Shown: positions 3,042 to 38,947 of the stretch, piece after piece
Numbering within the stretch: position 1 is the first letter of the stretch
Layout: each line of letters starts with the position of its first letter
Source: a virus
Strand: one strand, 5' to 3'
IMG/VR virus record: IMGVR_UViG_3300029231_000022
Span: 1 to 41,930 of that record
Length of the DNA stretch: 41,930 nt
The notes under the pieces: model-generated
What the model was told of the DNA's origin: nothing
Database searches by the model: none
Seen by the model: only the letters and a program-made list of their open reading frames with translations
Position numbers and translations under genes: made by a program

Positions 3042-3179
3042 TTCGCGGGGTCTCCCCCGTTAAAGCCACTCTTGTAGGGGCGGACGCCTCTGTCCGCCCG
3101 TCTGCCTTCCCCTTGAGGGGAAGGTGGCGCGAAGCGCCGGATGAGGAGAAGCGTTGTACATTCCGCGCTGTCGCCACGT
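3042..3179. repeat. Composite palindromic mini-element (intergenic, Prp/scaffold)
   Basis: Hairpin GGGCGGAC-GCCTCT-GTCCGCCC at 3078-3099. CCTTCCCC-TTGA-GGGGAAGG at 3105-3124, then T and GGCGC-GAA-GCGCC at 3126-3138. Tail is GTCGCCACGTT. Confidence 0.85.
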
Positions 3180-3500
3180 TTACTGCTCCCTCTCGAATCG
3201 CACATTCTGTGGATACTCATGCGCCACCATCTGCATCCCCAGCAGTGCCGTGTCCCACATCGCCCGCACCACCCGCTCACGCTTCGGCGCGCACGCAATG
3301 GTGATGTCTCCGGGCTGCATATCCACCACCGGCTCTGCCCGCAGCAGCCCCTCGCTTTCCGCTTTTAGGAGCATCCCGCCCAGCGCGTAGGAGAGGATCG
3401 TCACCGCCGCGCAGACAATATCCTGCCCCGCCGGAGCGTATCCCGCGTGCCCTGTGATCCGCAGGCTGTAGCCTTTACACTGGATGCTTATCATGCTCAC
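3180..3500 (-). CDS. prp: Prp-like cysteine protease (ribosomal-processing protease family)
   Basis: 106 aa with the GHAGYAPAGQDIVCAAV His/Cys motif typical of Prp/YsxB. Located between portal and scaffold. Confidence 0.8.
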   Translation of the reverse strand: MSMISIQCKGYSLRITGHAGYAPAGQDIVCAAVTILSYALGGMLLKAESEGLLRAEPVVDMQPGDITIACAPKRERVVRAMWDTALLGMQMVAHEYPQNVRFEREQ

Positions 3501-5407
3501 CCCTCCGGCTGTGACGCCTGCTGCGCCCTCTGCCGCGCGTTCGCGGTCACGCTGCTCTCCTTCTCCCCGGTCTCAAGGCTCACATCCGCGTTTCCCTGCG
3601 GCACAGTCTGCCCCGCCCCGGAGAGGATCGCCTGCGCCAGCCCGTCCGCTTTTTCCGGCGCGTACTGCTGTACGAGCTGCAAGGCAAACTGCTGCCACTG
3701 CGCGAGCTGCTGCTGCAGATCCCCGTTTGCCCGGATCTTCTGCATCACCTCGTACTTGTCCTCAAAATCCATCATATCCAGGCACGCCATCGCCTGCGGC
3801 GCGAGCTGCGGGTTGAAGAATCCCAGGTTGTAAAACTGCAAAGCCAATTCGTTTTGCGCAAGCTTTGTGTATTCCGTCTGCTTCTGCGCCGAAACGATGA
3901 TGTCAAATACCGGCTTCCGCCCGCCTGACTTTAGCCCCTCGTTGGAATACGTCACATACTCGTCCGCCCCCAGCGCCCCTGTGATGCGGAATCTGCGCGG
4001 CAGGTCATAAAACTGCCGGATGCGCTCGATCACCATCCCGATCATCCGCCGGTACGCGCGGTACGCGCTCTTCGTCGCGTCCTTGCTGCTCCTGCCGGAG
4101 GCTTCCTGCAAGGCTGCGATCGCCGACGCAGCAGTCACGCCGCCGCCCGCCGAGCCGTTGTTGACGTCCGTGTTGCCCGTCACCCACTTGAGTTCCTCGA
4201 TCTTGCTCGCCCGCATCTCAAGATAATTCCCGCTCAGAGGATTCACCACGATCTGCGCCAGCGAATCCTGCCCCAGATTGCCGTCGGTGTGTACAAACGG
4301 CTTTGTCCAGTCGGCAAATTCCTTCTCGTTGATCGCGGCGTCGCTTCGCGCGAACCATCGCGGACTTGCCGCCATGATCGTATTCTTCACGATCGCCTGA
4401 TCCATGCGGTCGATCTGCTCCTGCGCGCTCTTGCCGATGTCGATATACCCGTACCCGCAGATGCTCCCCTTCACCGGGAACAGTGCGTCGAATACGAACG
4501 GATACTCGCCGTCGGTGTAAAACCCGACCTCGGCAGGCGCTTGCGCAATGGGCACGTCCAGCACCGTCCCGTCCGCCTGCGGCATCTGCATCACGGGCGG
4601 CTGTGTGTCGTTTTCCGACGCATATAAAACCTCGTCGCCGCAGAACCGGCAGTAGTGCAAAAGCGTTTTTCCGCCCACGCGCTTTTTGTAATACCACTCC
4701 ACCACCAGCGCCTGCTCGCCTCTCTGCTGGTCGTCGTCTGTTTTATACTGCGCCAGCGTCAGCGCGCTCCCCTTGAGCTTGCCCTCCAGTTGCGGATACC
4801 GGCTCACAAGGTCGCTCTTGTCATACGCCCGGACAAAAAATACGTTTTGGGAATCCTGAATGTCTTTAATGCCCGGCTGCCAGAAGATGTTGAGCACGTC
4901 CACGCCGCAGATCGCCACGTCGCCCAAGCCGCCCTGCTTGCTGCTGTCCCATAAAACGGACCAAATGAGCGTCCCCGACTGCACCTTGTCCCACAGCGTA
5001 TCGCTGTATACCTGCTCAAAATCGTTGTGCTCCAAAATGCACGGCACGATCTGCGTGAGCATCCGCGCCTCCAGCGCGTCCGTCTGCTCGCGCGGTCGTA
5101 GGTTTGCCTCCGGGTATGCCTGGATGCCGTCCGCGTGCTTACCCATCAGGACGTTAAAAAGCCACCCGCTCGCAGGTCGGTCGTCGCGGGGATTGCCCTT
5201 TTCGTCAAACTGCCCCCACTGCCGCAGCTTCCACCACTCGTTGTTGGCGATCACGCGGTTTTCAAGCTGCGTTTTGCCGCTTTTGTACTGGATCAGCGTC
5301 TGCATCGCCGTGCGCACCTGCTCCGCCCCGATCGGCTGCACCTGCGCCTCCCGCAAAACCTCCTCCACCTGCGTTACCTGTTCGTTCTCTCCCATCCTGT
5401 CCTCCAT
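3497..5407 (-). CDS. Portal protein
   Basis: 636 aa, the first gene downstream of TerL and upstream of Prp/scaffold/capsid. Start overlap and RBS are consistent with that operon. Confidence 0.8.
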   Translation of the reverse strand: MEDRMGENEQVTQVEEVLREAQVQPIGAEQVRTAMQTLIQYKSGKTQLENRVIANNEWWKLRQWGQFDEKGNPRDDRPASGWLFNVLMGKHADGIQAYPEANLRPREQTDALEARMLTQIVPCILEHNDFEQVYSDTLWDKVQSGTLIWSVLWDSSKQGGLGDVAICGVDVLNIFWQPGIKDIQDSQNVFFVRAYDKSDLVSRYPQLEGKLKGSALTLAQYKTDDDQQRGEQALVVEWYYKKRVGGKTLLHYCRFCGDEVLYASENDTQPPVMQMPQADGTVLDVPIAQAPAEVGFYTDGEYPFVFDALFPVKGSICGYGYIDIGKSAQEQIDRMDQAIVKNTIMAASPRWFARSDAAINEKEFADWTKPFVHTDGNLGQDSLAQIVVNPLSGNYLEMRASKIEELKWVTGNTDVNNGSAGGGVTAASAIAALQEASGRSSKDATKSAYRAYRRMIGMVIERIRQFYDLPRRFRITGALGADEYVTYSNEGLKSGGRKPVFDIIVSAQKQTEYTKLAQNELALQFYNLGFFNPQLAPQAMACLDMMDFEDKYEVMQKIRANGDLQQQLAQWQQFALQLVQQYAPEKADGLAQAILSGAGQTVPQGNADVSLETGEKESSVTANARQRAQQASQPEG

Positions 5408-5420
5408 CCGTTTCTCCCAA

Positions 5421-5506
5421 GGCTTCCCTTGGTGACCAAGGGGAGCTGTCGCCGCAGGCGACTGAGGGGATCAGAACTCCCCCGCTCGCACCCGCTCCCG
5501 CGTTTG
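5421..5506. repeat. Palindromic mini-element filling the TerL-portal intergenic gap
   Basis: GCTTCCCTT-GGTGACC-AAGGGGAGC at 5422-5446. GTCGCC-GCA-GGCGAC at 5448-5462. Then TGAGGGGATCAGAAC and tail ...CGCGTTTGC abutting the TerL stop. Confidence 0.85.
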
Positions 5507-8527: not shown

Positions 8528-8677
8528 CGCCCTGTCCCCTTTTTATATAAAATGGTCGTAAACCTTCGCGCCTAGCAAGTTCCGCTACGCGCCCGCGCGC
8601 GTATTTAATATAGTATATCGCCTGACGGCTTCATCCAAAGCAGTCCAAAGCTGCCCTCGATGAAACTGTCAGCCTGC

Positions 8678-8800
8678 GCAAGCCTCCCCTTGGTGACGCC
8701 TATCGCAAGCCTCCCCTTGGTGACCAAGGGGAGGTGTCACGGCGCAGCCGTGACGGAAGGGATCAGAACTGCCCGCGTTCCGCTCTGCCGCCACGCTTGC
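8678..8800. repeat. Palindromic mini-element with duplicated 5' arm (intergenic)
   Basis: GCAAGCCTCCCCTTGGTGAC at 8678-8697 and again at 8705-8724 (27-nt period). The full hairpin ends at 8734. GTCACGG-CGCAG-CCGTGAC follows, then GGGATCAGAAC and tail GCCACGCTTGC. Confidence 0.85.
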
Positions 8801-8813
8801 GTCCCGTCCTTTC

Positions 8814-14500: not shown

Positions 14501-15126
14501 ACCGTCGCCTCCCGCACGCCCAGCTTCAGCGCCTCCTCGTGCGTCTGCACGGCAAGGTCGACGTGCCCGCCCAGCACGGCGCTGCCCGTGTCCTCCGCAA
14601 TGTAGCTGTGCAGCACGCCGTCGCCGTAGTCCACAAAAATCTCCGCCCCCAGCGGGATCACGTTGGGATCGACTGCCGCCGACCGCCCCGCCGTCACGTC
14701 TGTGCCCGTCGCGGTCTTGCCCGTCCCGCCGCCGCATACGTGTTCCCGTTTTTCGCAGCAGTAGTATGTAATGGTGCACTCCCGGAGCACGCCATCAAAC
14801 CCGCGCAGCTCGTCCAGATCGTTCCGCTCCGTCTCCGGGTATTCATTTTCCAGCAGCACGATCTCATACTCCAGCTCCCGTGTTTCCGCTGCCTCCCCTT
14901 GGTTACGCCCCTCGCTTGCCTCCCCTTGGTGACCAAGGGGAGGTGGCGCGCAGCGACGGAGGGGATCAGAGCTGCCCCCGTTCTGCTCTGTCGCCACGTT
15001 TGCTTCCGCGCGCGCCCGCGCCGCCCGCGCCGTTCCCAGCACCAGCAGCTCAAGCACCGCCAGCGCCAGCACCACCATCAGCACAAACTCGCCGACCACC
15101 CGCAGCGTCTCACGTCTCTTTCCCAT
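14485..15126 (-). CDS. Membrane-anchored 3D-domain (RlpA/MltA-like) protein
   Basis: Start MGKRRETLRVVGEFVLMVVLALAV gives a TM helix. C-terminus has ITYYC...GTGKTATGT...VAVDPNVIPLGAEIFV...AEDTGSAV, a 3D-domain signature. An element is inserted between them. Confidence 0.65.
   Translation of the reverse strand: MGKRRETLRVVGEFVLMVVLALAVLELLVLGTARAARARAEANVATEQNGGSSDPLRRCAPPPLGHQGEASEGRNQGEAAETRELEYEIVLLENEYPETERNDLDELRGFDGVLRECTITYYCCEKREHVCGGGTGKTATGTDVTAGRSAAVDPNVIPLGAEIFVDYGDGVLHSYIAEDTGSAVLGGHVDLAVQTHEEALKLGVREATVWWTE
14890..15012. repeat. Palindromic mini-element with duplicated 5' arm, in-frame in the 3D-domain gene
   Basis: TGCCTCCCCTTGG at 14890 and 14917 (27-nt period). Full hairpin runs 14917-14943. 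Translated as NGGSSDPLRRCAPPPLGHQGEASEGRNQGEA. Confidence 0.85.
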
Positions 15127-16189: not shown

Positions 16190-16645
16190 TCACCAATTCA
16201 CACACAATTCAAAGTCCGTGACCTCAAATCCAATTTCCGTACCTGCTCCTGTAGGGGCGGACGCCTCTGTCCGCCCATAGGCTCCCCTTGGTGACCAAGG
16301 GGAGCTGGCGCTGGAAGCGCCTGAGGGGATCAGAGCCTCCCCGCTTGCAGCCGCTTCCGCGTTCGCACCCTTGTCCAGATAGTTCCTCCCGAACTCCCGC
16401 GCAAAGTCCGCAGTGCTCCATCCCATCCTCTCCATCGCAAGCCGCTGCCCGTATTCGTGCAACGCCTGCGCCGTGTCGCGGCAGCGGTGCGCCGCCCGCT
16501 CGCCGAAGATGTGGCAGCTCCCGTGGCAAAGATCCACCACCAGCCCGAGCTTTTCGCTCTTCCGCCGGTTCGCCCCGCCGAAAATGTGGTGACGATCCAA
16601 CGGCTCATCCGCCCCGTTCTTCCCACACAGCCAGCACGTCCGCAT
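16190..16645 (-). CDS. HNH / His-Me-finger-like endonuclease with element-derived C-terminal insert
   Basis: CWLCG...LDRHHIFGG...LCHGSCH pattern. Residues ~100-135 are encoded by repeat modules. Confidence 0.5.
   Translation of the reverse strand: MRTCWLCGKNGADEPLDRHHIFGGANRRKSEKLGLVVDLCHGSCHIFGERAAHRCRDTAQALHEYGQRLAMERMGWSTADFAREFGRNYLDKGANAEAAASGEALIPSGASSASSPWSPRGAYGRTEASAPTGAGTEIGFEVTDFELCVNW
16249..16366. repeat. Palindromic mini-elements (two modules) in-frame in the HNH-like gene
   Basis: GGGCGGAC-GCCTCT-GTCCGCCC at 16255-16276. GCTCCCCTT-GGTGACC-AAGGGGAGC at 16281-16305. GGCGC-TGGAA-GCGCC at 16307-16321. Confidence 0.85.
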
Positions 16646-31800: not shown

Positions 31801-34800
31801 ATCCAGCTTTCTCACGCGAGCGCGGTATTCGTTCTTAAAGCGCGTGGACTTCGCCTGCTGCGTGTGTACCGGCTCAAAGATCGTCTCGTTGATCCTCTTC
31901 GCGTCCGCCGCCGGGAACACGTCCTCCACGTTCCGCTCCGCCGTCTCGCGGTCATACCGAAATCCCGGCGCAAGCCCCTTCTTGTCCTTCGCCTGTTCGC
32001 TGTTTGTAAGCAAAGGACGCACCTGCTCGCGGTAGTCCTCCTTCACGCCCCTGCGCCACCGGGCGATCTGCGCCGTGAGCGCGGCATAGTCTGCCTTTGC
32101 CTCGTACACGTTCAGAATGCTCTTCGCGTTCTTCCTGTCCTGAATGTCCTCCGGCGCAAGCTCTCCGCGCAGCAGCCGGTCCAGTATCCGCTCGTCCTCG
32201 TCCGTCAGCAGATTCTTGCTCTGCACCCGCTCATAGGCGCGTCTGGCTTCCCTCTGCCGCTTGTAGAGTTCTTCTACCTCCGCCTGCGACTTCGGCGCTT
32301 CCTGCGCCAGCTTCGTCCGCTCGCGGCTCTCTGCCCACGCTCTGGCGGTGCGCAGCGAGGCTTTCATGTCCTCCACGGCAGCCTCAAAGTCATGCCTTGC
32401 CCACCGCTTATAGTCCCCGCCGTCGCCCTTGTGCGCCTCGTCCAGCGTCTGCTTCGTGATCTGGATCTTATCCGCCACCTCGATCATGCGCATCAGCTGA
32501 TCCGCCGGGTTCATGATCGCCTCCGGGAACAGCCCCGGCGCTTCGTCGTGGAGCTCTCCGTACAGCGTGTCGATGCCGATGCCCTCGTTGTTGAGTAAGA
32601 TCTTCCCGCGCACCGCCCGCCGGAACTGCTCAAGGTCTGCAAACTCCGCCCGCACCTCCGGCGTCACCCGGATGCCCGTCTTGAGCAGCTTGTCGCGGAT
32701 GTGCTTGAAGTCGTGGAAGAACTCGTAGTTTACCTCAATGCCCTCGTCGTAGGCTTTGTCAAACGCTCGGTCGATGTCATTTTGCGCGATCTTGCCGGTT
32801 TTCAGGAACTCTTTCATCAGTTCTTGCAGCGCAGGTTTTACGATTCGCTGCTGTTCGTTGTACGGGACGCTCATTGCCCGTCCCGCCTGCCGCACCGCGC
32901 TGTTCACCGCCTGATCCACAAACGCCCGCGCCTTCCCCGGCAGCTTGTCGTAGCTGTACACCTTCGGCTTCTCTCCCGTCTCCGAAGCCTCCCCTTGGTG
33001 ACCAAGGGGAGGTGGCGCGGAGCGACGGAGGGGATCAGAACTACCCCCGTTCTGCTCTTCCGCCACGTTTGCTTCCGCGTTTGCATCCCGCGTCTCCGGC
33101 GATAGCTTTGCAGTCAGTCTCCCTGAATCGTCCAGCCTTACGACGTCAGAAAATTTTTCGCCGCGCAGGTTGACACTTCTGCCCTTGTAGGATATACTAC
33201 CGATATAACCGTTGCGCAGAAGCTCTCGGGACGCTATTGTAAGCCCGAATTGGCGAAGAAGCGCAGCGGTTCTTTTTTTGTCCGCATACAGTACCTCGCT
33301 CGCCTGCACGAACGCAGCCGGGTTTTTCTTCGTAAACGCCGTGTTCACCTTCTGCATATCGTCAAGCTGGAATCCGTTTTCCTGCGGTCTCAGATCCAGC
33401 ACCGTCAGAATTGGCTTTTCATTTTGCGCTTTCAGCGAACCGAAAATCACCAATCTGCTATTGTCGTTTCCGCGAGCATTCGTCCCTTTGCTTTTCAAGA
33501 TCATCACAGGATCGTCCAGAATTTCCGGGATTCGTTCGATCTCGCGCAGCGTCATTTCCGGGTGCTCCGCCAGAATGGTGCGGATTTTCTCGCCGTTCAT
33601 GTAGATGTCGCTTTCGATCGCGCCCAGCCCTTGCAGCACATCGCCCGTCGTGCCCAGCGTAAAAGAAGCATCCGACGGCATCCCGTCTCCCGCCCACTCC
33701 TTCAATTTTTCTGCATACGCAGCATCGACGCTGTACGCCTCCGGCGGACCTCTGGTCTGTGCCGGTTTTTTTGCGCTCTGGCTCGCGTTGCTGTCTGCGG
33801 CGGCTCTGACGCTGCTCTGGAGCTTGTCCGCGCCCAAGCCCATGCGGTTGATACCCGCGTAGGCGTCGCACACGATCTCGTCCAGATACGCGCTCAGATC
33901 CTCGCCTGTGTAGCAGCCCTCGTAGGCCTCGCAGTATTTCCGCGCCAGCTTATCCCGCTGCTCCCGCGAAAGCCCCAGCGCGTCGATCAGGCGCTCCCGC
34001 AGCCCCGGTTCTGCTTCCAGCCGCAGGTGCATCGCCTCGTGCTCGGCGGTCTTGATAACGCCGTCCTTCGCGTCAATGTTGATCCATACGGTCGTTCCCT
34101 GTGCAACACCCTGTACGCTCATCTCTCTGCCGCCTGCGGTCCTGATCCTGATCGACCCGCTCACAAGACGCACGTCGTCCGCGCCGGCATCTGTAAGGAT
34201 TTGCTTTGCCTGCTTGAGGGCGGGATATTCCTGCACCATCGCGTCCGGCACGCGGTAGAACATTTTCTGCTCCGAGCCGTTTTCGATCCCGTCCGCCTTT
34301 GGGCTTAACCGTTCCGCTTTCGCAGTGCCGAGGACACTTTGGATTCTAAGGCTTTCCTTGACGCCGAATCCGCCTGCGGATTCTTTCTCTGCTCCTCCTG
34401 CTCCTCTGCCCACGCGTCCAGACGGCTCATCGGAATCCATACCTGCATCCCGTTCGCCGCCGTTACCAATACCCGCTGTTCCATTTTCTTCTCCTTTCCG
34501 CCTGCCTTCCTTGTAGGCTTCCTGCAATACCTCGTCCGCAATGCCCCTCTGAGAATCCTCCCGCTTGAATTTCCAGCCGAACCGTCCCTTCCCGTAGGCG
34601 ACACGCACCGCCTCTGCATACGTCGGGATGTCCATCTGCACGCGGTCGTTTGCATCAAAATACCCGGAGATAAAATATTGCGTCATCGCAAAGCCGTATT
34701 CGCGCTGCTTTGCGATCCGCTCCAGCTCCGCCGCGTCCTGCTCCTCTGCCGCTCTCCTTGCCGCAAGCTCGGCGGCGCTCTCCTGCGCCTGTGCGGACTG

Positions 34801-37512
34801 CTCTGTCTCGCGCAGCTCCTTGTCGGATAGGGTCTGTGTCTCGCGTCCCATCTCCTTCTGCTGCCGCTCGTTCTCCAGCCGCGCCCGCGCAACGCTCGCC
34901 ACGTCCTGCATATCCCGCTCCTTCGCTTCCAGATACGCCTCGTCCTGCGCGATCTGCTCCCGCAGCTCCCGCACCCGCGCATTTATGGCTTCCCCTCGGG
35001 GGGAAGCTGTCGCCGTAGGCGACTGATGAGGGGAAGGCTCGTTATTTCTGACCTGCTGTGCGTTTGCTCCTTCCAGCCCCCGCAGCTCCGCCGTCCGCGC
35101 ATCGTACTCCTTTAGCCGCGCCTTATACTCGCGCAGCGTGTCTCCGACCTTCCCGAACAGCTTGTCGCCCTTCACGCGCCCGCGTACATCCTCCTGCCCC
35201 GCCTGCCGCAAGACCGTCCGCACCTCCGGCTCACCGTTCGCACCCACGGTTTCCTGCGCACCTGTAGGGGCGGACGCCTCTGTCCGCCCGGCGTTCTCCG
35301 TTCCGACCTGCCGCGCGTTTGCACTCTCCAAAGCCTCCCCTTGGTGACCAAGGTAGCGAAGCGGCGGCGCGGTGTTATCAGACAGCCCGGTGGGCTGTCT
35401 GTCCCGCGCCGTGACCGAGCCGTAGCGAGACGGTGGCGCGGAGCGCCGGAAGGGATCAGAACTACCCCCGTTCTGAGCTGCCGCCACGTCTGCCTCCAGC
35501 TCCATATTGTCCGGCAGCCCGTCCCCGTCCTCGTCGATCACGTCCATATTGGACGGAATGTCGTCCTCCACGTCCATATTCTCCGGCAAATCTGCCGGGC
35601 GCTGCACGCCGATTGTCGGCACGGTATCCCCTGCCTTCCCCTCGGGGGGAAGGTGGCGCGAAGCGCCGGATGAGGGGAAGGCTTCCCCGCTTGCAGCCGT
35701 TGCCGCGTTTCCTCCCGTCACCGGCGTATTCGGCGTATCGCTCGCGCCGGTACGGAACGCGTCCTCGATCTCGCTCGTCAGCAGCCGCACCGTCTGTGCG
35801 CCTACGCCCGACGTGCCCGCCGCTGCCGCAGCAGTGCCCGTATCGCCCGCGAGCATGATGTTGATATTCCCGATGGCAACGTCCAAGCCCTTCTGGATGT
35901 CGTTCACGAACTCCTGCTGTCCGGCGTAGTAGGTGCTTCCCACCTCCGCCTTTAGTTCCTTCACATGCGTCCGCAGGTCACGCAGCGCCTGCTCATATTC
36001 CTCCTGCGTCGCATACTGCCTGCCGTTCATGTGGTTCTGGATGGCGTCAAACTCCTGCGTGATCTGGTCATACTTTGCCTTGACCTGCTCGCTCGCCGCC
36101 TTCGTGCTCCGCATGGCGCTCAGGTAGCCGTCCACCATCGCGAATGCAAACGACATTCCAAGCTCCGTGGCGATCTCTTCCTTCGTCATCTTCCGCCCGG
36201 ACGCCACGGCACTCACCCCGGTGTTCGCCGCCGAGAACGTCGCCGATGCCGCCGTCTGCCGCAGATACTCCTTGAACGGCGTCATCATCTGCTTGTCCGT
36301 CAGCAGCTTCGCAACGCCCGACGATACCAGCCCCGACGCAATCGACCCCGCCGCGCCGCCTGCCGCGCTGGCAAGCGTGCGCTGCGCGAATTGCCCGCCG
36401 GTCATCTCGCCCGTGGCAAGACCGCCCGCGCTCTGGATCGCCTCCCGCGCCGCAAACGAAAGCGCCGTCTGTCCTGCGGAAATTGCCGCCTGTCCCAGCT
36501 TTGTTGCGCCCAGCGCCGTCTTTGCAAGCGCACCCGCCGCAGGGTTGAGTGCCCCCTGCGTCAGCAGTGCCGTGCCCGCTCCAATGCCGACCTTGGTCGC
36601 CCAGGTAATACCCGGCTCTGCCGCCTGCGCCTGCTTTCCCGCCTGCTCCGAGCTTTGCAGCGTCTTGATGCCCGTCTCATCTCCTGCCGCCGCAGCGCGC
36701 AGCTTCGCCATGGATAAAAGCCCCGTGGATTCCACCGCCGCCGACCGAAACGCCGTGCTCTTCGGATGCAGCCGCGCGTAAAGCTGGTCGTAGATTGCGA
36801 CCTGCCGGGTGTATTCCTCGTTGTCTCCGCGCATATACGCGTCCCACGCCGGGGCGTAGTCCGACGGATTGTACGCGTTGCCGGTCAGGTTCTGCACCTG
36901 CGCCGCCTTCAGCAGCGCCTTTGCTGCCTTCTTCTCGTCCTCGCCCCACTGCATCCTGCTCAACATCTCGCCGCGCTTGGCAATGCCCTCCGTGTCCGTG
37001 GGCGTCTGTGCCAGCACCTTCTTGAAAAGATCGTCCGCCCAGTGCCCCTGCCACTTCTTCATTGCCGCGTCGCTGCCGTGGTCGCCGTAGTCGATCGCCG
37101 GCGCTTCTTCCTTGGGCGTCGTATCCTGCCGGTATCTTCCCAGCGCCCCCATAGTCGGCGTGTCCAGCGAATAAGCCGGCTTTCCCGCCGTCATCCCGCG
37201 CATCGCCCTGTACCGCTGCTGCGTGATGCTGTCCACCGCCGCCTTGTACTGCTCAAACGTCACCCCGCCCTGCGCCTTGTACCGCTCCTGCGTCAGACTG
37301 TCCGAGCCTGCCTCCCCTTGGTGACCAAGGGGAGGTGGCGCGGAGCGCCGGAGGGGATCAGAACTATCCCCTCTCCGAGTTGTTGCCACGTTCGCCGCCG
37401 GCGCGGCAGCCGCCCCGCTCTTTCGATAGCTGCCGCTCTGCTTATACTCCGTCCATTTCCCCGTCCGGCGCTCCTGCTCCTGCTGTTTTTTATACTCGCT
37501 CCATGCTCCCAT
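28900..37512 (-). CDS. Giant 2870-aa virion-block protein (multidomain; possible polyvalent/ejection protein)
   Basis: Single uninterrupted ORF. Gly/Ala-rich hydrophobic stretch at aa ~300-440. HEAMH (HExxH) at nt 34027-34041. Six in-frame repeat-element insertions. Confidence 0.85.
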   Translation of the reverse strand: MGAWSEYKKQQEQERRTGKWTEYKQSGSYRKSGAAAAPAANVATTRRGDSSDPLRRSAPPPLGHQGEAGSDSLTQERYKAQGGVTFEQYKAAVDSITQQRYRAMRGMTAGKPAYSLDTPTMGALGRYRQDTTPKEEAPAIDYGDHGSDAAMKKWQGHWADDLFKKVLAQTPTDTEGIAKRGEMLSRMQWGEDEKKAAKALLKAAQVQNLTGNAYNPSDYAPAWDAYMRGDNEEYTRQVAIYDQLYARLHPKSTAFRSAAVESTGLLSMAKLRAAAAGDETGIKTLQSSEQAGKQAQAAEPGITWATKVGIGAGTALLTQGALNPAAGALAKTALGATKLGQAAISAGQTALSFAAREAIQSAGGLATGEMTGGQFAQRTLASAAGGAAGSIASGLVSSGVAKLLTDKQMMTPFKEYLRQTAASATFSAANTGVSAVASGRKMTKEEIATELGMSFAFAMVDGYLSAMRSTKAASEQVKAKYDQITQEFDAIQNHMNGRQYATQEEYEQALRDLRTHVKELKAEVGSTYYAGQQEFVNDIQKGLDVAIGNINIMLAGDTGTAAAAAGTSGVGAQTVRLLTSEIEDAFRTGASDTPNTPVTGGNAATAASGEAFPSSGASRHLPPEGKAGDTVPTIGVQRPADLPENMDVEDDIPSNMDVIDEDGDGLPDNMELEADVAAAQNGGSSDPFRRSAPPSRYGSVTARDRQPTGLSDNTAPPLRYLGHQGEALESANARQVGTENAGRTEASAPTGAQETVGANGEPEVRTVLRQAGQEDVRGRVKGDKLFGKVGDTLREYKARLKEYDARTAELRGLEGANAQQVRNNEPSPHQSPTATASPRGEAINARVRELREQIAQDEAYLEAKERDMQDVASVARARLENERQQKEMGRETQTLSDKELRETEQSAQAQESAAELAARRAAEEQDAAELERIAKQREYGFAMTQYFISGYFDANDRVQMDIPTYAEAVRVAYGKGRFGWKFKREDSQRGIADEVLQEAYKEGRRKGEENGTAGIGNGGERDAGMDSDEPSGRVGRGAGGAEKESAGGFGVKESLRIQSVLGTAKAERLSPKADGIENGSEQKMFYRVPDAMVQEYPALKQAKQILTDAGADDVRLVSGSIRIRTAGGREMSVQGVAQGTTVWINIDAKDGVIKTAEHEAMHLRLEAEPGLRERLIDALGLSREQRDKLARKYCEAYEGCYTGEDLSAYLDEIVCDAYAGINRMGLGADKLQSSVRAAADSNASQSAKKPAQTRGPPEAYSVDAAYAEKLKEWAGDGMPSDASFTLGTTGDVLQGLGAIESDIYMNGEKIRTILAEHPEMTLREIERIPEILDDPVMILKSKGTNARGNDNSRLVIFGSLKAQNEKPILTVLDLRPQENGFQLDDMQKVNTAFTKKNPAAFVQASEVLYADKKRTAALLRQFGLTIASRELLRNGYIGSISYKGRSVNLRGEKFSDVVRLDDSGRLTAKLSPETRDANAEANVAEEQNGGSSDPLRRSAPPPLGHQGEASETGEKPKVYSYDKLPGKARAFVDQAVNSAVRQAGRAMSVPYNEQQRIVKPALQELMKEFLKTGKIAQNDIDRAFDKAYDEGIEVNYEFFHDFKHIRDKLLKTGIRVTPEVRAEFADLEQFRRAVRGKILLNNEGIGIDTLYGELHDEAPGLFPEAIMNPADQLMRMIEVADKIQITKQTLDEAHKGDGGDYKRWARHDFEAAVEDMKASLRTARAWAESRERTKLAQEAPKSQAEVEELYKRQREARRAYERVQSKNLLTDEDERILDRLLRGELAPEDIQDRKNAKSILNVYEAKADYAALTAQIARWRRGVKEDYREQVRPLLTNSEQAKDKKGLAPGFRYDRETAERNVEDVFPAADAKRINETIFEPVHTQQAKSTRFKNEYRARVRKLDLSRKVKAGDVVSEAHAVQLYGEAMDNIRQLTKRPMDAKRDGKTLAEWEAVVRELWEKNPGIRKEKVERAVGEFRRIYDELFTQMNDVRVRNGYEPIDYRKGYFPHFQPGQTDGVLAVMGKALGIKADVTALPTTINGLTHTFKPGITWFGNAQERLGFNTAYDAVEGFDKYIEGAADIVFQTDNIQRLRAFASEVRYRTSNEGVRERVDAIRADDSISEQDKELRIKDLYENAKFELSGFAAWLDEYTNLLANKKSKLDRGVESVLGRGFYNAMSWLESRAAANMVAMNPGSWLTNFIPLTQAWGYVSTGDMVQAMGQTLAAMKNDDGFWERSAFLTNRRGSDPLVRTWQGNLSAKLSMPMEWIDTFTADTIVRARYNQNLRRGMLEEDAMREADRFAANIMADRSKGATPTMFQSRNPFVKLFTQFQLEVNNQFSNIFKDLPREMRKRSLQALAWALFKMFFSAWAYNELYEKVVGRRAALDPIDMTNELVGDATGYKLNNVLDVAFGSEAGFIHEGKPAGFGNTVTNFLTSTAEELPMAGGVLGGGRVPFSSALPDVSAIWKVATNKELDSETKNAKLWEEVRDPLLYLGLPFGGGQIRKVAQGIYAVAKGGKFYRNNKGELQMQYPVFTDEGVMTVLRDVQAGVFGRNATKEARDWVQGGFSKLSTKETNAYLAMSAADVKQREAWKLIQAMKDVDVPEGVSKKAAKLEALRDYDISDEAKALYYYNVIASDTERAQLDAYMDLDEELADEKVQSAINNAEATAISEEEQAAKEARAKRDRASKANYAQMYRKIRDLKLDGYEPIYKSQLKALKEQEGLSDSDARKEIQKGVIAEVKEAFQSGSIDEKMATRILSKNLNESEDDTYWMLEEWKGGPDYSKYGKLTDAMEQNTDAKETVQYYLSHGVQKRDISSQITRYFKPLYKAAETRQEKNEIARQANVFYRAAGYMEKWNDMMKWDKEDS
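32985..33090. repeat. Palindromic mini-element, in-frame in the giant ORF
   Basis: CCTCCCCTT-GGTGACC-AAGGGGAGG at 32988-33012, plus the B and C modules and tail. Flanked by CGTCTCCG at 32977-32984 and 33091-33098. Confidence 0.85.
34988..35067. repeat. Palindromic mini-element (TCGG-loop type), in-frame in the giant ORF
   Basis: GCTTCCCC-TCGG-GGGGAAGC, T, GTCGCC-GTA-GGCGAC, then TGATGAGGGGAAGG. Confidence 0.85.
35262..35322. repeat. GGGCGGAC-GCCTCT-GTCCGCCC hairpin module, in-frame in the giant ORF
   Basis: Same 22-nt hairpin as at 3078 and 16255. Tail is ...CCGCGCGTTTGC. Confidence 0.8.
35332..35494. repeat. GGTGACC-type element interrupted by a 78-nt nested hairpin insert
   Basis: The A hairpin is truncated after AAGG (35353). 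Insert 35354-35431 contains GGCGCGG..AGACAGCCC-GGT-GGGCTGTCT..CCGCGCC. The element resumes at GGTGGCGCGGAGCGCC. Confidence 0.8.
35633..35712. repeat. Palindromic mini-element (TCGG-loop type), in-frame in the giant ORF
   Basis: CCTTCCCC-TCGG-GGGGAAGG, T, GGCGC-GAA-GCGCC, then GGATGAGGGGAAGGCTTCCCC. Confidence 0.85.
37308..37396. repeat. Palindromic mini-element near the giant ORF N-terminus (aa ~38-68)
   Basis: Three clean hairpins: CCTCCCCTT/AAGGGGAGG, GGCGC/GCGCC and GAGGGGA-TCAGAACTA-TCCCCTC. Confidence 0.85.
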
Positions 37513-37525
37513 GCTCTTCTCCTTC

Positions 37526-38611
37526 TCAGTACTTCGGCAGCGTGTACCCGTGGTTGTTCAGAATGCCCGCCACCGTGTTCCACTGCTTGCGCGATAGCTT
37601 GCTCTCGTACTTTGACATGATCTGGTCCACCGTCTGCGCATCGCCCTTCGCCGCATTCTGCTTGACCGCATACAGCATATTGTCAAACATCGTCTTGCTC
37701 AGACCTGCGCCAAACTCCGTCCACGCCGAATCGCTGCCGCTCCCGGAGCTCTTGCCGCCCCCCGATCCGCCCGCCGCCTTCTGCGCTGCTGCATAATAGC
37801 TCTGCTCATCCTGCTGCTTTTGCAGCCAATAGCTCCGCTCCGCCGCCCAGCGGTTGTAATCGTCCTGCGCCGCCGCCTGCGCCGCAGACTGTGCCAGCGA
37901 CAGCTCGTTAAAGTAATCGCTCATCTGGTCGCGGTACTTGCTGTAGTCCTGCTGCTCGCGGTCGTTGAGCATTCCCCACTGGTCAAGCATCCTTGCGCCC
38001 TCGTCGCTGTACTGCTGATACGCCTGCCCGTACAGCTCCGGCACAACGTCATTGAGGCTCTGGAGATACGCGTCATACGTCTGCTGCCCCACGCTCTGCC
38101 CGTAGCTCGACCCGTACCCGCCCGTCAGGGCGGCAGCCTGCCCCATCGTGTCCATCATCGCCGTCCTGCCGAGATTCTGATACTGCATCTTGTACTGCTG
38201 ATACATCGGGTCATCGTACACGTCGTACTTGAATTTCTCGCGGTTTGTGATCTTGTCATACAGCGCGTCCAGCTCCGCGCCCCACTTCGATTCATACGCC
38301 CCCGGCTTCGACCCCTGCACGCCCGCGAGATAGCTCTGCGCCGCCCGCACCGCCGACGACGGCGTGTACCCGCTCTCCAATCTGGATAGCCTTTCCGTCG
38401 TCTGTGAGCTTGCGCCCGGAATGCCGCTTCTGGTGTCGTACCCGCCGCCGTAGTTGTGGATCGTCTGCTGCTTGTTTACGAGCCTTGACGTGTACCTCCC
38501 GTTCTCGCCCACGCCTGTGATCTCATAGGTGCCGCCCCCGGTCACAACACGGTCGCCCGTCGTCAAACCCGCAGGCGCTTGCCCGCCCTTCTCAACTCTG
38601 TAAATGCCCAC
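37526..38611 (-). CDS. Virion-block hypothetical protein (361 aa), Q/Y-rich
   Basis: GTG start (MGIYRVEKGG...). Lies 14 nt upstream of the giant ORF. Confidence 0.65.
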   Translation of the reverse strand: MGIYRVEKGGQAPAGLTTGDRVVTGGGTYEITGVGENGRYTSRLVNKQQTIHNYGGGYDTRSGIPGASSQTTERLSRLESGYTPSSAVRAAQSYLAGVQGSKPGAYESKWGAELDALYDKITNREKFKYDVYDDPMYQQYKMQYQNLGRTAMMDTMGQAAALTGGYGSSYGQSVGQQTYDAYLQSLNDVVPELYGQAYQQYSDEGARMLDQWGMLNDREQQDYSKYRDQMSDYFNELSLAQSAAQAAAQDDYNRWAAERSYWLQKQQDEQSYYAAAQKAAGGSGGGKSSGSGSDSAWTEFGAGLSKTMFDNMLYAVKQNAAKGDAQTVDQIMSKYESKLSRKQWNTVAGILNNHGYTLPKY

Positions 38612-38614
38612 GTT

Positions 38615-38947
38615 TTAGCCCCCTTTTCTGGTTTCTGCGCTTGGCTCTCCCTTTGGGAGAGCTGTCGCCGTAGGCGACTGAGAGGGTTCACCCTCCGCCC
38701 CCCTTGCCTTCCCCTCGGGGGGAAGGTGGCGCGAAGCGCCGGATGAGGGGAAGGGCTGTGCGCTCTGCTCTGTCTGCACGTTCACTTCCGCGTTTTCGCC
38801 CTCCCGCAGTTCCCGCTCCACGACCGTCAGCAGCTCCGCCCGCAGTTCCCGCAGGCACTGCTCCGCCGCCAGCGGCGGCAGGGCGGAATCGTTGATCGCC
38901 TGCACAATATCGTCCCGCAGCTTAAAATACCGTTTCGTAAAATTCAT
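38615..38947 (-). CDS. 110-aa protein whose C-terminal half is repeat-element encoded
   Basis: The N-terminal ~55 aa look ordinary (MNFTKRYFKLRDDIVQAINDS...). Residues ~50-110 map onto the modules at 38643-38800. Confidence 0.55.
   Translation of the reverse strand: MNFTKRYFKLRDDIVQAINDSALPPLAAEQCLRELRAELLTVVERELREGENAEVNVQTEQSAQPFPSSGASRHLPPEGKARGAEGEPSQSPTATALPKGEPSAETRKGG
38643..38800. repeat. Two tandem palindromic mini-elements inside the 3' half of 38615..38947
   Basis: GCTCTCC-CTTTG-GGAGAGC with GTCGCC-GTA-GGCGAC. Then CCTTCCCC-TCGG-GGGGAAGG with GGCGC-GAA-GCGCC and a tail. Confidence 0.85.

What the first reader, a model, noticed from the sequence alone, without database searches (positions are those of the whole stretch)
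3042..38800. Family of multi-hairpin GC-rich palindromic mini-elements at 12 loci, mostly translated in-frame inside phage genes
Related 60-160 nt modules occur at twelve loci: 3042-3179, 5421-5506, 8678-8800, 14890-15012, 16249-16366, 32985-33090, 34988-35067, 35262-35322, 35332-35494, 35633-35712, 37308-37396 and 38643-38800. Read on the + strand, most modules share one layout. Hairpin A is CCTCCCCTT-GGTGACC-AAGGGGAGG, CCTTCCCC-TCGG-GGGGAAGG or GCTCTCC-CTTTG-GGAGAGC. One unpaired T follows. Hairpin B is GGCGC-GRA-GCGCC, GTCGCC-GYA-GGCGAC or GTCACGG-CGCAG-CCGTGAC. Next is a conserved purine strand (T/G)GA(TGA)GGGGA. Hairpin C is often present, e.g. GAGGGGA-TCAGAACTA-TCCCCTC, and its loop carries GATC. 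The tail ends GCCACGTTTGC(TTCCGCG). A further hairpin, GGGCGGAC-GCCTCT-GTCCGCCC, occurs at three loci: beside such a module at 3078 and 16255, and alone at 35262-35322. Stem sequences differ between copies while pairing is kept, so the fold rather than a peptide looks conserved. All copies share one orientation. Nine loci lie inside CDSs and none breaks the frame. They are read as SSDPLRRSAPPPLGHQGEA, PSSGASRHLPPEGKA, GRTEASAPTG or SPTATASPRGEA-type peptides in four unrelated proteins: the giant ORF (six copies), the 3D-domain protein, the HNH-like protein and the 110-aa protein. The other three fill the only sizeable intergenic gaps in the minus-strand gene blocks. This resembles Rickettsia palindromic elements, which are selfish palindromes tolerated in-frame. 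I know of no description of this in a tailed phage. Other explanations are structured RNA or ssDNA signals, or RNA-level excision.
Basis: partly seen in the sequence, partly recalled or inferred. Interest (0 to 1): 0.9.

Follow-up and report, generated by a model that had tools for sequence, protein, structure and literature searches.

The report
Host triplex-type repeats inside phage genes
A temperate gut phage carries about a dozen copies of its host's palindromic repeat elements, most read in frame as extra linker peptides inside phage genes, and their sequence pattern suggests a folded three-stranded DNA structure of a kind so far described only between bacterial genes.

Summary
Twelve loci hold 11 intact and one interrupted copy of a module made of hairpin A, one T, hairpin B and a purine strand. 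A GTAG-tagged hairpin D occurs at three loci. All copies lie on the + strand, and nine sit in open frames. The elements work at the DNA level: copies are read in different frames, both stems covary, and exact copies are scattered through Oscillospiraceae genomes, the probable host. Close relatives of the phage lose homology exactly at these loci. The same slot holds different modules or none, and size differences are multiples of three. Distant orthologues lack the modules.

One new point: the "conserved purine strand" is the mirror image of hairpin A's purine arm (G with G, A with A or T, closing C with T). This is the signature of an intrastrand purine-motif DNA triplex like E. coli BoxC/PIT/TMECO, but with mini-hairpin B in the second loop. 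The same layout occurs in many unrelated viral contigs and in rhizobial plasmids. Hairpin D is a REP-type element, and one candidate host encodes a RAYT-like transposase flanked by such REPs.

Best reading: host REP/BIME-like mosaic repeats colonised a prophage and survive as in-frame linkers and rearrangement hot spots. Triplex folding, mobilisation and translation are inferred. It is a new variant of known kinds.

The parts
3074..3099 (+). Hairpin D: GTAG-tagged REP-type hairpin GTAG-GGGCGGAC-GCCTCT-GTCCGCCC. Intergenic, upstream of module 1.
   Evidence: Absent in relatives L002 and L029, where window 3069-3103 is replaced by ATTTCCAAA. There are 12 exact copies in the sampled host loci.
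3105..3146 (+). Module 1 (A2 type): hairpin A 3105-3124, T 3125, hairpin B 3126-3138, mirror purine strand 3139-3146. The tail runs to about 3179 and abuts the stop of the Prp-like gene (3180-3500).
   Evidence: triads 7/8.
5422..5506 (+). Module 2 (A1 type, C-closed): A 5422-5446, T 5447, B 5448-5462, purine strand 5463-5473, hairpin C and tail to 5506. It fills the gap between the TerL stop (5507) and the portal start (5407).
   Evidence: 9 contiguous triads. In the same slot L002 has a partial-plus-full A1 module with another hairpin B, and L019/L029 have an A2 module.
8678..8800 (+). Partial A1 5' arm (8682-8697) plus module 3: A 8710-8734, T 8735, B 8736-8754, purine strand 8755-8765, tail to about 8800. 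Intergenic, overlapping the 3' end of an 88-aa ORF.
   Evidence: Relative L029 has 1319 nt in place of window 8604-8831.
14890..15012 (+). Partial A1 arm plus module 4: A 14919-14943, T 14944, B 14945-14957 (one G.A mismatch), purine strand 14958-14968, tail 14993-15010. It is in frame in the linker of the 3D-domain protein (14485-15246, minus strand).
   Evidence: Orthologues carry other modules or none at this linker.
16251..16366 (+). Hairpin D (16251-16276) plus module 5 (C-closed A1): A 16281-16305, T 16306, B 16307-16321, purine strand 16322-16332, tail to 16366. It forms a C-terminal extension of g151 (16190-16645, minus strand) and is read in a different frame from the other A1 copies.
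   Evidence: phrog_7566 covers aa 1-90 only.
32985..33090 (+). Module 6 (A1): A 32988-33012, T 33013, B 33014-33026, purine strand 33027-33037, hairpin C about 33030-33054, tail 33062-33079. In frame in the giant ORF at aa 1475-1510.
   Evidence: At this position L177 and distant orthologues carry a whole variable domain instead.
34988..35067 (+). Module 7 (A2, C-closed): A 34988-35007, T 35008, B 35009-35023, purine strand 35024-35031, plus tail. In frame in the giant ORF at aa 816-842.
   Evidence: L176 has a variant module at this position and distant orthologues have a gap.
35262..35322 (+). Hairpin D unit (D 35264-35289 plus tail), part of an 81-nt in-frame block that is absent from L176 and L177.
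   Evidence: 81 nt is 27 codons.
35332..35494 (+). Module 8 (A1), interrupted. The 5' arm and loop of hairpin A are followed by a 75-nt palindromic insert (about 35354-35428). Then come B with the purine strand from 35432, and the tail.
   Evidence: L176/L177 have the simple module, and 75 nt is 25 codons. The insert is a recurrent host variant, with 12 host copies at the same position and compensatory stem changes.
35633..35712 (+). Module 9 (A2): A 35634-35653, T 35654, B 35655-35667, purine strand 35668-35675, plus tail. In frame in the giant ORF at aa 601-627.
   Evidence: L176/L177 differ in this segment.
37308..37396 (+). Module 10 (A1): A 37311-37335, T 37336, B 37337-37349, purine strand 37350-37360, hairpin C GAGGGGAT/ATCCCCTC, tail. 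In frame in the giant ORF at aa 39-69.
   Evidence: Present in L177, absent from L176.
38643..38800 (+). Module 11 (A3): A 38644-38662, T 38663, B 38664-38678, purine strand 38679-38686. Module 12 (A2): A 38707-38726, T 38727, B 38728-38740, purine strand 38741-38748, tail to about 38800. Both lie in the C-terminal tail of g110 (38615-38947, minus strand).
   Evidence: The orthologous gene has 0 modules in L003 and hairpin D plus 3 modules in L002.
28900..37512 (-). Giant ORF (2870 aa) with a MuF_C domain at aa 1312-1415. It hosts six element loci.
20176..21243 (+). Tyrosine integrase gene. This indicates a temperate phage, which as a prophage is exposed to the host's repeat pool.
   Evidence: A related phage lies on contigs of 114-189 kb.

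Best explanation
The loci are copies of a mosaic repeat system that belongs to the host chromosome (Oscillospiraceae, Avoscillospira-like) and has colonised this temperate phage.

There are two kinds of unit.
1. Hairpin D is a GTAG-tagged REP, the substrate type of REP-associated tyrosine transposases (RAYTs).
2. The core module reads, on the + strand: pyrimidine arm, loop, purine arm (together hairpin A), one T, a G+C-rich mini-hairpin B with a G-N-A loop, then a purine strand that mirrors the purine arm. As single-stranded DNA this can fold back onto hairpin A as a reverse-Hoogsteen third strand. That is a class II purine-motif intrastrand triplex like E. coli BoxC/PIT/TMECO, but with hairpin B as the second loop.

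Copies most likely enter and turn over in the prophage in two ways: ssDNA transposition by host enzymes, and recombination or gene conversion with chromosomal or sister copies. Selection keeps only copies in harmless places. These are the few intergenic gaps, gene 3' ends, and disordered linkers of the giant MuF-type protein and the 3D-domain protein. There they must be stop-free and a multiple of three in length, and they are simply translated as low-complexity linkers. Once present, they act as hot spots where related phages rearrange and swap segments.

Shown: the repeat family, stem and mirror covariation, identity with host copies, slot polymorphism among relatives, size differences in multiples of three, and absence from distant orthologues.

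Inferred: triplex folding in vivo, the mobilising enzyme, translation of the peptides, and a causal role in rearrangement.
For: Real family, single orientation.

DNA-level, not peptide-level: different reading frames. Hairpin A is perfect in 46/65 copies chosen only by hairpin B, against 0/65 shuffled, with 17 distinct arms. Hairpin B is present in 53/76 host copies chosen only by hairpin A, against 0/76 shuffled, with 24 distinct sequences and mostly GAA/GCA/GTA loops.

Mirror (triplex) code: a scanner that asks nothing of the downstream strand finds 296 modules in the loci held at that point, 202 of them unique. An earlier run found 171 in 2.36 Mb against 5 in a block-shuffled control. The analysis used the 154 unique copies with a T spacer. 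90% of positions are triad-compatible (G.GC, A.AT, T.AT, T.CG) in register. Controls give 46-49% when shifted, 52% for a direct-repeat control, and 68% (maximum 72.5%) after permuting strands among copies. There are 38 distinct purine arms (also z about 10). In the window, five A1 copies have 9 contiguous triads, A3 has 8/8 and the four A2 copies have 7/8.

Host origin: the exact 21-mer of hairpin A1 occurs in 88 stretches of bacterial genomes, all of them Oscillospiraceae, Clostridiales or other Firmicutes (Bacillota) MAGs as far as the listing shows, with many contigs per genome. The host sample holds 170 GTAG hairpins, including 12 exact copies of hairpin D. The 75-nt insert is a host variant. 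A RAYT-like gene flanked on both sides by GTAG REP doublets lies in Ca. Avoscillospira stercorigallinarum.

Turnover: homology between 92-98% identical relatives breaks at the element loci. The same slots hold different modules or none. Size differences are 81, 75 and 6 nt. The 39 distant relatives have 0 strict modules around the giant ORF. Element peptides fall in gaps of orthologues.

Temperate lifestyle: integrase; a related phage lies on 114-189 kb contigs.

Precedent: intrastrand triplex repeats mark rearrangement-prone loci in E. coli (PMC4666352). In-frame intragenic REPs are known in bacteria (PMC3733652).
Against: - No target-site duplication, terminal inverted repeat or clean excision footprint was seen, so transposition is not demonstrated. 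The data fit recombination just as well.
- The RAYT-like protein scores 71.4 bits, below NCBIfam's 80-bit cut-off. Its flanking REPs are a sister variant of hairpin D, not D itself.
- No enzyme is linked to the A-T-B-purine module.
- Triplex formation rests on covariation alone. The A2 subfamily has a consistent mismatch at triad 6, and many host A1 copies have GGAAGGG where GGAGGGG is expected.
- Hairpin C competes for the same purine strand.
- Uniform orientation of all 15 units is not explained by stop codons alone: 24/36 frames are open in the mRNA sense against 17/36 in the other sense.
- Host assignment rests on shared repeats, not on a CRISPR spacer or a mapped prophage.
Confidence: 0.7

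Rival explanations
1. Adaptive recombination linkers. The phage keeps the modules because identical, co-oriented, frame-compatible copies let domains of the giant MuF-type protein and other genes be swapped in frame between co-infecting phages or prophages. This overlaps with the best explanation but claims selection for the phage's benefit.
For: Homology between relatives breaks at modules. At giant-ORF aa 1475-1510 the module sits exactly where L177 and distant relatives carry different whole domains. All copies are co-oriented. Four of the five translated A1 copies share one frame.
Against: The same repeats are abundant in host chromosomes and in unrelated bacteria at ordinary intergenic sites, so no phage-specific benefit is needed. 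With only two open frames, sharing of a frame is not significant. No recombinant junction was traced to two identifiable parents.
Confidence: 0.25
2. A structured RNA on the transcripts, either a regulatory or stabilising element or a segment excised at the RNA level.
For: All units are co-oriented with respect to transcription in the window. The hairpins would also fold as RNA. REPs in bacteria are often transcribed and lie downstream of genes (PMC3733652).
Against: No Rfam family matches at E<=1. If the segments were excised, nothing would select for open frames and size differences in multiples of three, yet all nine intragenic loci keep the frame. The T-for-A and T-for-C substitutions fit the purine-motif code on the + strand, which is antisense to the mRNAs. 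According to PMC4666352 purine-motif triplexes do not form in RNA. In other contigs the modules appear in either orientation relative to neighbouring ORFs (with crude gene calls). No U-tract follows the hairpins on the mRNA strand at 5421-5506 (read directly from the sequence).
Confidence: 0.08
3. Phage-beneficial single-stranded DNA signals, for example replication pause or priming sites, packaging-related structures or decoys against host nucleases. These would act on one strand, which would explain the uniform orientation.
For: All 15 units have the same strand orientation, and this is not fully explained by stop codons. G-N-A triloop mini-hairpins of the GCGAAGC type are unusually stable as DNA (from memory, Hirao and colleagues). 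Purine-motif triplexes can arrest polymerases (PMC4666352).
Against: The loci differ in presence or absence, or in module content, among phages that are 92-98% identical elsewhere. The modules are absent around the giant ORF in 39 distant relatives. This argues against an essential signal. The same elements are ordinary chromosomal repeats of the host.
Confidence: 0.1
4. Ordinary low-complexity peptide linkers or protein repeats kept by selection on the protein.
For: The peptides recur in four proteins and sit in linkers.
Against: The same DNA is read in different frames. It also occurs intergenically in the window and in host genomes. The stems covary. Orthologues lack the segments or carry other modules.
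Confidence: 0.02

Closest known systems
Intrastrand triplex repeats BoxC / PIT / TMECO of E. coli and other bacteria (Hoyne et al. 2000 as cited in, and Holder et al. 2015, PMC4666352)
   Same: The order is pyrimidine arm, loop, purine arm, loop, mirror purine strand (class II purine motif). G.GC, A.AT and T.AT triads are used. The elements are multi-copy and highly conserved. Their loci are unusually rearranged between close relatives. A BoxC-like motif (CCCTCTCCC-CCC-GGGAGAGGG-TTA-GGGTGAGGG) sits next to a GTAG REP in viral locus L133.
   Different: Here the second loop is one T plus a 13-21-nt hairpin. That is beyond the 1-6 nt (ITxF) or 0-10 nt (Hoyne) loops searched, so this class would have been missed. 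The arm sequences differ from CCCTCNCCC. A T.CG triad occurs at the closing pair. TMECO is reported as always intergenic and not associated with phages, plasmids or transposons, whereas these copies are in a phage and mostly inside ORFs. Triplex folding was shown in vitro for TMECO but not here.
GTAG-tagged REPs, BIMEs and RAYT transposases (Nunvar 2010 PMC2817692, title and abstract only; Di Nocera 2013 PMC3733652)
   Same: Hairpin D has the GTAG head and a G+C-rich palindrome. It is in many copies in the candidate host. A RAYT-like gene flanked by REP doublets is present in a candidate host. The elements form mosaics of several motif types and, in the host, inverted doublets. They lie mostly downstream of genes. 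In-frame intragenic copies are known in some bacteria.
   Different: The A-T-B-purine module has no GTAG or CGTC tag and is not a simple palindrome. In the phage all copies share one orientation rather than alternating. No paper found in the library places REPs inside phage genes. The cognate enzyme is not identified.
Rickettsia palindromic elements (RPEs)
   Same: They are palindromic repeats of about 100-150 bp, inserted in frame into unrelated genes and translated as extra peptide segments (PMC10969869). Di Nocera equates RPE-4 and RPE-6 with CGTC REPs.
   Different: The elements here differ in sequence, modular anatomy (triplex-type module) and host clade. They are shared between a phage and its host chromosome. 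Each RPE family encodes a conserved peptide, whereas here the reading frame varies.
Rhizobial intergenic repeats (RIMEs, Sm-repeats, 'AB, C palindromes' of Sinorhizobium meliloti)
   Same: A module with the same layout (cttctcccc-ttgc-gggagaagg T GGCGCGAAGCGCC GGATGAGGGG) is found in 131 Rhizobium, Shinella, Sinorhizobium and other plasmid or chromid records. It lies at intergenic sites. S. meliloti has annotated palindromic repeat families (PMC2573895).
   Different: I could not read the papers that give those families' sequences, so identity with any named rhizobial family is untested. None of what I could read mentions a triplex code or phage or ORF locations.

Membership tests
Intrastrand triplex repeat, class II purine motif (BoxC/PIT/TMECO kind) | Order 5'-pyrimidine arm, loop, purine arm, loop, third purine-rich strand-3' on one strand | tested here: met
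   Seen in all 11 intact window modules and in 202 unique modules elsewhere.
Intrastrand triplex repeat, class II purine motif (BoxC/PIT/TMECO kind) | The third strand mirrors the duplex purine arm with G.GC and A/T.AT triads | tested here: met
   90% of positions are compatible in register. Controls give 46-52%, and permutation gives 68% (maximum 72.5%). There are 38 distinct arms. Permutation z is about 10.
Intrastrand triplex repeat, class II purine motif (BoxC/PIT/TMECO kind) | Short loops (1-6 nt in ITxF; 0-10 nt in Hoyne) and the TMECO consensus CCCTCNCCC-N3-6-GGGNGAGGG-N3-GGGNGAGGG | tested here: not met
   The second loop is T plus a 13-21-nt hairpin, and the arms are CCTCCCCTT, CCTTCCCC or GCTCTCC. 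So this is not a TMECO member but a variant of the kind.
Intrastrand triplex repeat, class II purine motif (BoxC/PIT/TMECO kind) | Triplex folding of the isolated strand (CD, NMR, footprinting) | not testable with these tools
   The folding tool models Watson-Crick pairs only.
REP / RAYT system (GTAG-tagged REPs), applied to hairpin D | GTAG tetranucleotide at the foot of a 20-40-nt G+C-rich palindrome | tested here: met
   GTAG-GGGCGGAC-GCCTCT-GTCCGCCC at 3074, 16251 and 35264. The definition is from PMC3733652.
REP / RAYT system (GTAG-tagged REPs), applied to hairpin D | High copy number in the bacterial chromosome | tested here: met
   12 exact copies and 170 GTAG hairpins in 537 kb of sampled host loci. 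At least 118 viral loci carry the GTAG-GGGCGGAC-N6-GTCCGCCC pattern.
REP / RAYT system (GTAG-tagged REPs), applied to hairpin D | A cognate RAYT gene flanked by the REPs | tested here: inconclusive
   L236 has a 159-aa HUH/Y protein between gyrB and gyrA, flanked on both sides by GTAG REP doublets. It scores 71.4 bits against REP_Tyr_transpos (cut-off 80), and its REPs are a sister variant of D. No such gene was seen in the phage ORFs scanned.
REP / RAYT system (GTAG-tagged REPs), applied to hairpin D | Extragenic location | tested here: not met
   Two of the three D copies lie in open frames: g151 and the giant ORF. Intragenic REPs are, however, documented in some bacteria.
Rickettsia palindromic elements | In-frame insertion into unrelated ORFs | tested here: met
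   Nine loci in four ORFs, with the frame kept.
Rickettsia palindromic elements | Sequence membership in an RPE family, or a conserved encoded peptide | tested here: not met
   The reading frame varies between copies. Host copies are in Oscillospiraceae. No direct comparison with RPE sequences was possible.
MITE | Terminal inverted repeats and target-site duplication | tested here: not met
   Junction alignments with relatives show replacement or cassette addition without a TSD. The element ends (AAGCC... and ...GTTTGC) are not inverted repeats.
Any Rfam RNA family | Covariance-model match | tested here: not met
   The only hit at E<=1 is a Leu_leader-like terminator at 23018-23089, unrelated to the loci.

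The most novel reading that the evidence does not exclude
The A-T-B-purine module would define an undescribed class of repeat found across several bacterial phyla. It would be a 'hairpin-bridged' intrastrand purine-motif DNA triplex that really folds in single-stranded DNA. It would spread between chromosomes, plasmids and phages, mobilised or resolved by an enzyme not yet identified, and would create rearrangement hot spots. In phages it would be domesticated or tolerated as translated in-frame linkers, which would make it the first triplex-type or REP-type element shown inside phage structural genes.
Probability: 0.35. Interest if true: 0.8.

Novelty: new variant of a known kind. Interest (0 to 1): 0.65.

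Why it matters
Three things would follow if this reading holds.

1. Repeat families treated as bacterial 'extragenic' furniture also invade temperate phage genomes. There they are translated inside structural and injected proteins. This affects phage gene calling, protein-domain annotation and alignment-based phylogeny in gut viromes.

2. The mirror-strand covariation extends the small known set of natural intrastrand-triplex repeats to a much larger family spanning several phyla. Earlier searches could not see it because they allowed only short loops. The family comes with dozens of natural compensatory variants, which make the fold directly testable in vitro.

3. The exact coincidence of these modules with homology breakpoints between near-identical phages offers a concrete sequence-level candidate for how mosaic phage genomes and polyvalent MuF-type proteins exchange segments.

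Tried and rejected
- **Ribozyme or known RNA.** CTGATGAG in one copy suggested a hammerhead, but the motif is not conserved and Rfam gives nothing at E<=1.
- **MITE model.** No TIRs or TSDs at junctions.
- **Cultured phages.** blastn of a whole module against INPHARED found nothing. The window has only a 263-nt match to one record.
- **Covariance model.** MAFFT put the 5' arms of hairpin A out of register, and the sequences had been chosen for perfect stems. A model or pair count on that alignment would have been circular. I used cross-selection tests instead and fuzzy searches for extra copies.
- **Gene context and orientation in other loci.** Stop-free stretches are too common at 60-70% G+C for my crude ORF calls to be decisive. 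Host A1 copies are depleted from long ORFs (median spanning stretch 186 codons against 456), but this is not conclusive.
- **Associated enzyme for the module.** A DUF559/Vsr-like ORF is flanked by inverted modules in L043/L057. It is the only case in all fetched loci, and three annotated rhizobial or Azospirillum copies have ordinary neighbours. The lead was dropped.
- **Rhizobial repeat papers.** Capela 2001 and Osteras 1995 are not held.
- **Sequence-string literature search** found nothing.
- **G-quadruplex reading of the G-runs.** It does not predict the A-to-A/T and C-to-T mirror correspondences.
- **Alternative Watson-Crick pairing of the purine strand with the 5' arm.** This is excluded for asymmetric arms, for example GGGGGAAGG with GGAAGGGGG.

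Full report
**What the window is.** The window is a complete phage genome of about 41.8 kb. Its first and last 99 nt are identical (D6), and nearly all genes lie on the minus strand. It encodes:
- a major head protein (800-2080);
- a Prp-like peptidase (3180-3500);
- a P22-type portal (3497-5407);
- TerL (5507-6859);
- a replication initiator (7637-8527);
- a 3D-domain protein (14485-15246);
- an amidase (23306-23962);
- a 2870-aa ORF with a MuF_C domain (28900-37512);
- a tyrosine integrase on the + strand (20176-21243).

So the phage is temperate. The identical capsid protein is found on 7 independent assemblies of 20-50 kb, and a related phage lies on contigs of 114-189 kb. The contig is therefore not an assembly artefact.

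**Check of the observation.** All twelve loci are as described.
- The repeat finder recovers the families on its own.
- The A1 hairpin 21-mer occurs 13 times within 3 mismatches, against none in 100 shuffles.
- I located 11 intact modules and one interrupted one, with exact coordinates.
- Every asymmetric part occurs only on the + strand and only at these loci.
- As single-stranded DNA, the loci fold into hairpins A, B and C as the minimum-energy structure. z-scores are -2.0 to -4.9 for seven of the eight segments. The 61-nt hairpin-D unit is not distinguishable from shuffles (z -0.62).
- Nine loci are in open minus-strand frames.

Two of the nine are C-terminal extensions rather than internal inserts. 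The PHROG family of g151 ends at aa 90, and the g110 orthologue of a relative has no modules.

**DNA-level or peptide-level.** The evidence points to the DNA level.
- The same DNA is read in different frames. A1 gives PPPLGHQGEA in four copies (and PPLRYLGHQGEA in the interrupted one) but SSPWSPRGA in g151. A2 gives HLPPEGKA or ASPRGEA.
- Three loci are intergenic.
- Stem covariation was tested without circularity. Among copies picked only by hairpin B and its immediate flanks, 46 of 65 have a perfect hairpin A of 6 bp or more abutting the T. None of 65 shuffles does. There are 17 different arms.
- Among host copies picked only by hairpin A, 53 of 76 have a hairpin B against 0 of 76 shuffles. 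There are 24 different sequences, and the loops are mostly GAA, GCA or GTA.
- No Rfam family matches.

**Relatives and empty sites.** Three IMG/VR phages are 92-98% identical to the window over most of the genome. Homology breaks precisely at the element loci.
- Hairpin D at 3074 is missing in two relatives. There, 35 nt of the window are replaced by 9 nt.
- The TerL-portal gap holds three different module combinations in three phages.
- The 3D-protein linker holds a partial-plus-full A1 module in the window, and hairpin D plus an A2-like module in two relatives. The lengths differ by 6 nt.
- In the giant ORF the window has an extra 81-nt hairpin-D unit. It also has a 75-nt palindrome inside hairpin A that the relatives lack.
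- The g110 gene has 0, 2 or 3-4 units in three phages.

Thirty-nine more distant relatives (37-59% protein identity) have no strict module within about 10 kb of the giant ORF's centre. Their proteins show gaps where the window has element peptides. At aa 1475-1510 the module stands where one close relative and the distant relatives carry whole, differing domains.

A database search with the 3D protein shows the same picture:
- an orthologue at 92% identity by the search's BLASTP (96% in the alignment) lacks the partial duplication;
- orthologues at 75-84% carry other modules;
- orthologues at about 70% carry only a decayed tail;
- orthologues at 65% identity or less have short linkers without modules.

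**Where the elements come from.** The exact 21-mer of hairpin A1 occurs in 88 stretches of the bacterial genome collection. As far as the listing shows, all are MAGs labelled Oscillospiraceae, Clostridiales or Firmicutes (Bacillota): Candidatus Avoscillospira species, several uncultured Oscillospiraceae, a Clostridiales bacterium, an uncultured Firmicutes bacterium and Ca. Avilachnospira. There are many contigs per genome.
- Those copies have the same layout, with many hairpin B variants. They often form inverted doublets and arrays.
- The same 537 kb of host sequence holds 170 GTAG-tagged hairpins, including 12 exact copies of the phage's hairpin D.
- It also holds 12 copies of the '75-nt insert inside hairpin A' variant, with compensatory stem changes relative to the phage copy.
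- One host locus encodes a 159-aa HUH/Y protein between gyrB and gyrA, flanked on both sides by GTAG REP doublets. This is the classical RAYT arrangement. It matches NCBIfam's REP-associated tyrosine transposase at 71.4 bits, below the 80-bit cut-off.

The phage elements are therefore members of the probable host's own repeat pool.

**The purine strand is a mirror of hairpin A.** A pattern search for hairpin B plus flanks returned 57 viral loci from many habitats. Nearly all have the full hairpin A, T, hairpin B, purine-strand layout, with different arm sequences. In these, the strand after hairpin B is the reverse (not the complement) of hairpin A's 3' purine arm:

| Purine arm of hairpin A | Strand after hairpin B |
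|---|---|
| GGAGAGG | GGAGAGG |
| GGGGGAGG | GGAGGGGG |
| GGGGGAAGG | GGAAGGGGG |
| GGGAGAAGG | GGATGAGGG |
| GGGGAGC | TGAGGGG |

I wrote a scanner that requires only hairpin A, one spacer base and hairpin B.
- It finds 171 modules in 2.36 Mb, against 5 in block-shuffled sequence.
- After the host loci were added it finds 296 modules, 202 of them unique.
- Among the 154 unique modules with a T spacer, 90% of positions obey G with G, A with A or T, and C with T in register.
- Controls give 46-49% when the register is shifted, 52% for a direct-repeat control, and 68% (never above 72.5% in 2000 trials) when third strands are permuted among copies.
- There are 38 different arms.

These are the triads of the antiparallel purine motif. 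G.GC and A/T.AT are as set out in PMC4666352. T.CG I recall from Beal and Dervan's work and did not check here. The order pyrimidine arm, purine arm, third strand is that paper's class II.

Watson-Crick alternatives fail for asymmetric arms. A G-quadruplex would not predict the A/T and C/T correspondences.

In the window, the five intact A1 copies have nine contiguous triads, ending where the purine run ends. A3 has 8 of 8. The four A2 copies have 7 of 8.

**Comparison with what is known.**
- Holder et al. (PMC4666352) describe the E. coli BoxC/PIT/TMECO repeat, CCCTCNCCC-N3-6-GGGNGAGGG-N3-GGGNGAGGG. They show it folds as a triplex in vitro and that its loci are unusually rearranged among strains. 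They state that it is always intergenic and not associated with phages, plasmids or transposons. The present module has a 14-22-nt second loop that is itself a hairpin, so it lies outside those searches.
- Di Nocera et al. (PMC3733652) define GTAG-tagged REPs and link them to RAYTs. They report in-frame intragenic REPs in a few bacteria, equating RPE-4 and RPE-6 with REPs. The terms Firmicutes, Clostridi- and phage do not occur in the main text of that paper.
- The MITE review confirms the in-frame habit of RPEs.
- I found no paper placing REP-type or triplex-type repeats inside phage genes.
- The proteobacterial form of the module occurs in 131 plasmid or chromid records, mainly Rhizobium, Shinella and Sinorhizobium but also Azospirillum, Xanthomonas and Planctomyces. 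It lies at ordinary intergenic sites. It may overlap repeat families annotated in S. meliloti, whose sequences I could not read.

**How it most likely works.** The steps shown are the anatomy, the covariation, the identity with host copies, the turnover at fixed slots, size differences in multiples of three, and absence from distant orthologues. The rest is inference, in four steps:
1. As a prophage, the genome is exposed to the host's repeat machinery and to homologous copies.
2. Units enter or are exchanged by ssDNA transposition (plausible for hairpin D through a RAYT) or by recombination or gene conversion. The shared tail ...GCGTTTGC flanks the 81-nt addition on both sides, which fits either route.
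3. In a tightly packed genome only copies in gaps, at gene ends and in disordered linkers survive. They must be stop-free and keep the frame, and they are then translated.
4. The structure-prone DNA (hairpins plus a possible triplex) promotes breakage and exchange. This would explain why homology between relatives ends there.

RNA-level excision is unlikely, because it would remove the need for open frames.

The uniform orientation remains only partly explained. In the mRNA sense, 24 of 36 frames are open, against 17 of 36 in the other sense.

**Verdict.** The family is a new variant of known kinds: REP/BIME-type host repeats combined with a hairpin-bridged intrastrand-triplex module. Its setting, in frame within genes of a temperate phage, had not been described in the literature I could search.

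Noticed in passing
window 1-99 and 41832-41930: Identical 99-nt direct repeat at both ends. The contig is a circularly closed or terminally redundant genome of about 41,831 bp (D6).
   Followed up: partly
window 27611-27778 and 27982-28310: About eight tandem copies of a 21-nt unit and three copies of a 102-nt unit lie inside the 501-aa ORF 26963-28468, which has no Pfam match (D2 and D4). This may be a repetitive fibre-like protein.
   Followed up: no
L002 9321-10190 (between window 5611 and 5616, in TerL): A close relative has an 870-nt insertion in the terminase gene. It carries an intein-like Hint N-terminus (CLTGDTLV...), an HNH endonuclease ORF (HVHHVDEDRSNN...) and a C-terminal ...VVSHNC splice-type motif. 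The window lacks it.
   Followed up: partly
window 32985-33090 (giant ORF aa 1475-1510); L177 and L186-L215 at the aligned position: Between conserved flanks, relatives carry different whole domains of about 250-350 aa, while the window and L176 carry only a 36-aa module peptide. This is a variable-cassette site of the MuF-type polyvalent protein.
   Followed up: partly
L236 329-805 (DVFN01000104.1, Ca. Avoscillospira stercorigallinarum): A RAYT-like HUH/Y transposase gene sits between gyrB and gyrA, with GTAG REP doublets on both sides.
   Followed up: partly
L133, about 50 nt upstream of its GTAG hairpin: A BoxC/TMECO-like short-loop triplex motif (CCCTCTCCC-CCC-GGGAGAGGG-TTA-GGGTGAGGG) lies directly next to a GTAG REP in an unrelated viral contig.
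   Followed up: no
L043 and L057 1523-1939: A DUF559/Vsr-like endonuclease ORF is flanked by modules in inverted orientation. This was the only such case among all fetched loci, and it was not seen next to rhizobial copies.
   Followed up: partly
window 23018-23089 (minus strand): A strong G+C hairpin followed by a U-run matches the terminator part of Rfam Leu_leader weakly (26 bits, E 0.23). It is probably an intrinsic terminator.
   Followed up: no
window 12491-12535 and 13442-13486: A 45-nt direct repeat (82% identity) overlaps the starts of two minus-strand ORFs, 12112-12534 and 12531-13409 (D20).
   Followed up: no
host loci L217-L296; window 14945-14957 and 33014-33026: Hairpin B often carries a G.A mismatch at its second pair (GGCACGGC-GAA-GCCGTGAC; GGCGC-GGA-GCGAC) or tandem G.A pairs (GGGTGAGC-GAA-GCGAACCC). 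The recurrence suggests that these non-canonical pairs are part of the conserved shape.
   Followed up: no
L058-L175 (many contigs of IMG/VR sample 3300045988): A family of gut phage contigs carries one GTAG hairpin (loop GGCTCT or GACTCT) at a conserved site just upstream of a gene start (...GAGAAAGAGGTG..ATGATGGCAAAGAG). Several of these contigs also carry a single GCTCCCCTTGTGAAGGGGAGC-T-GGCGCCGCAGCGCC-TGAGAGG module elsewhere.
   Followed up: no
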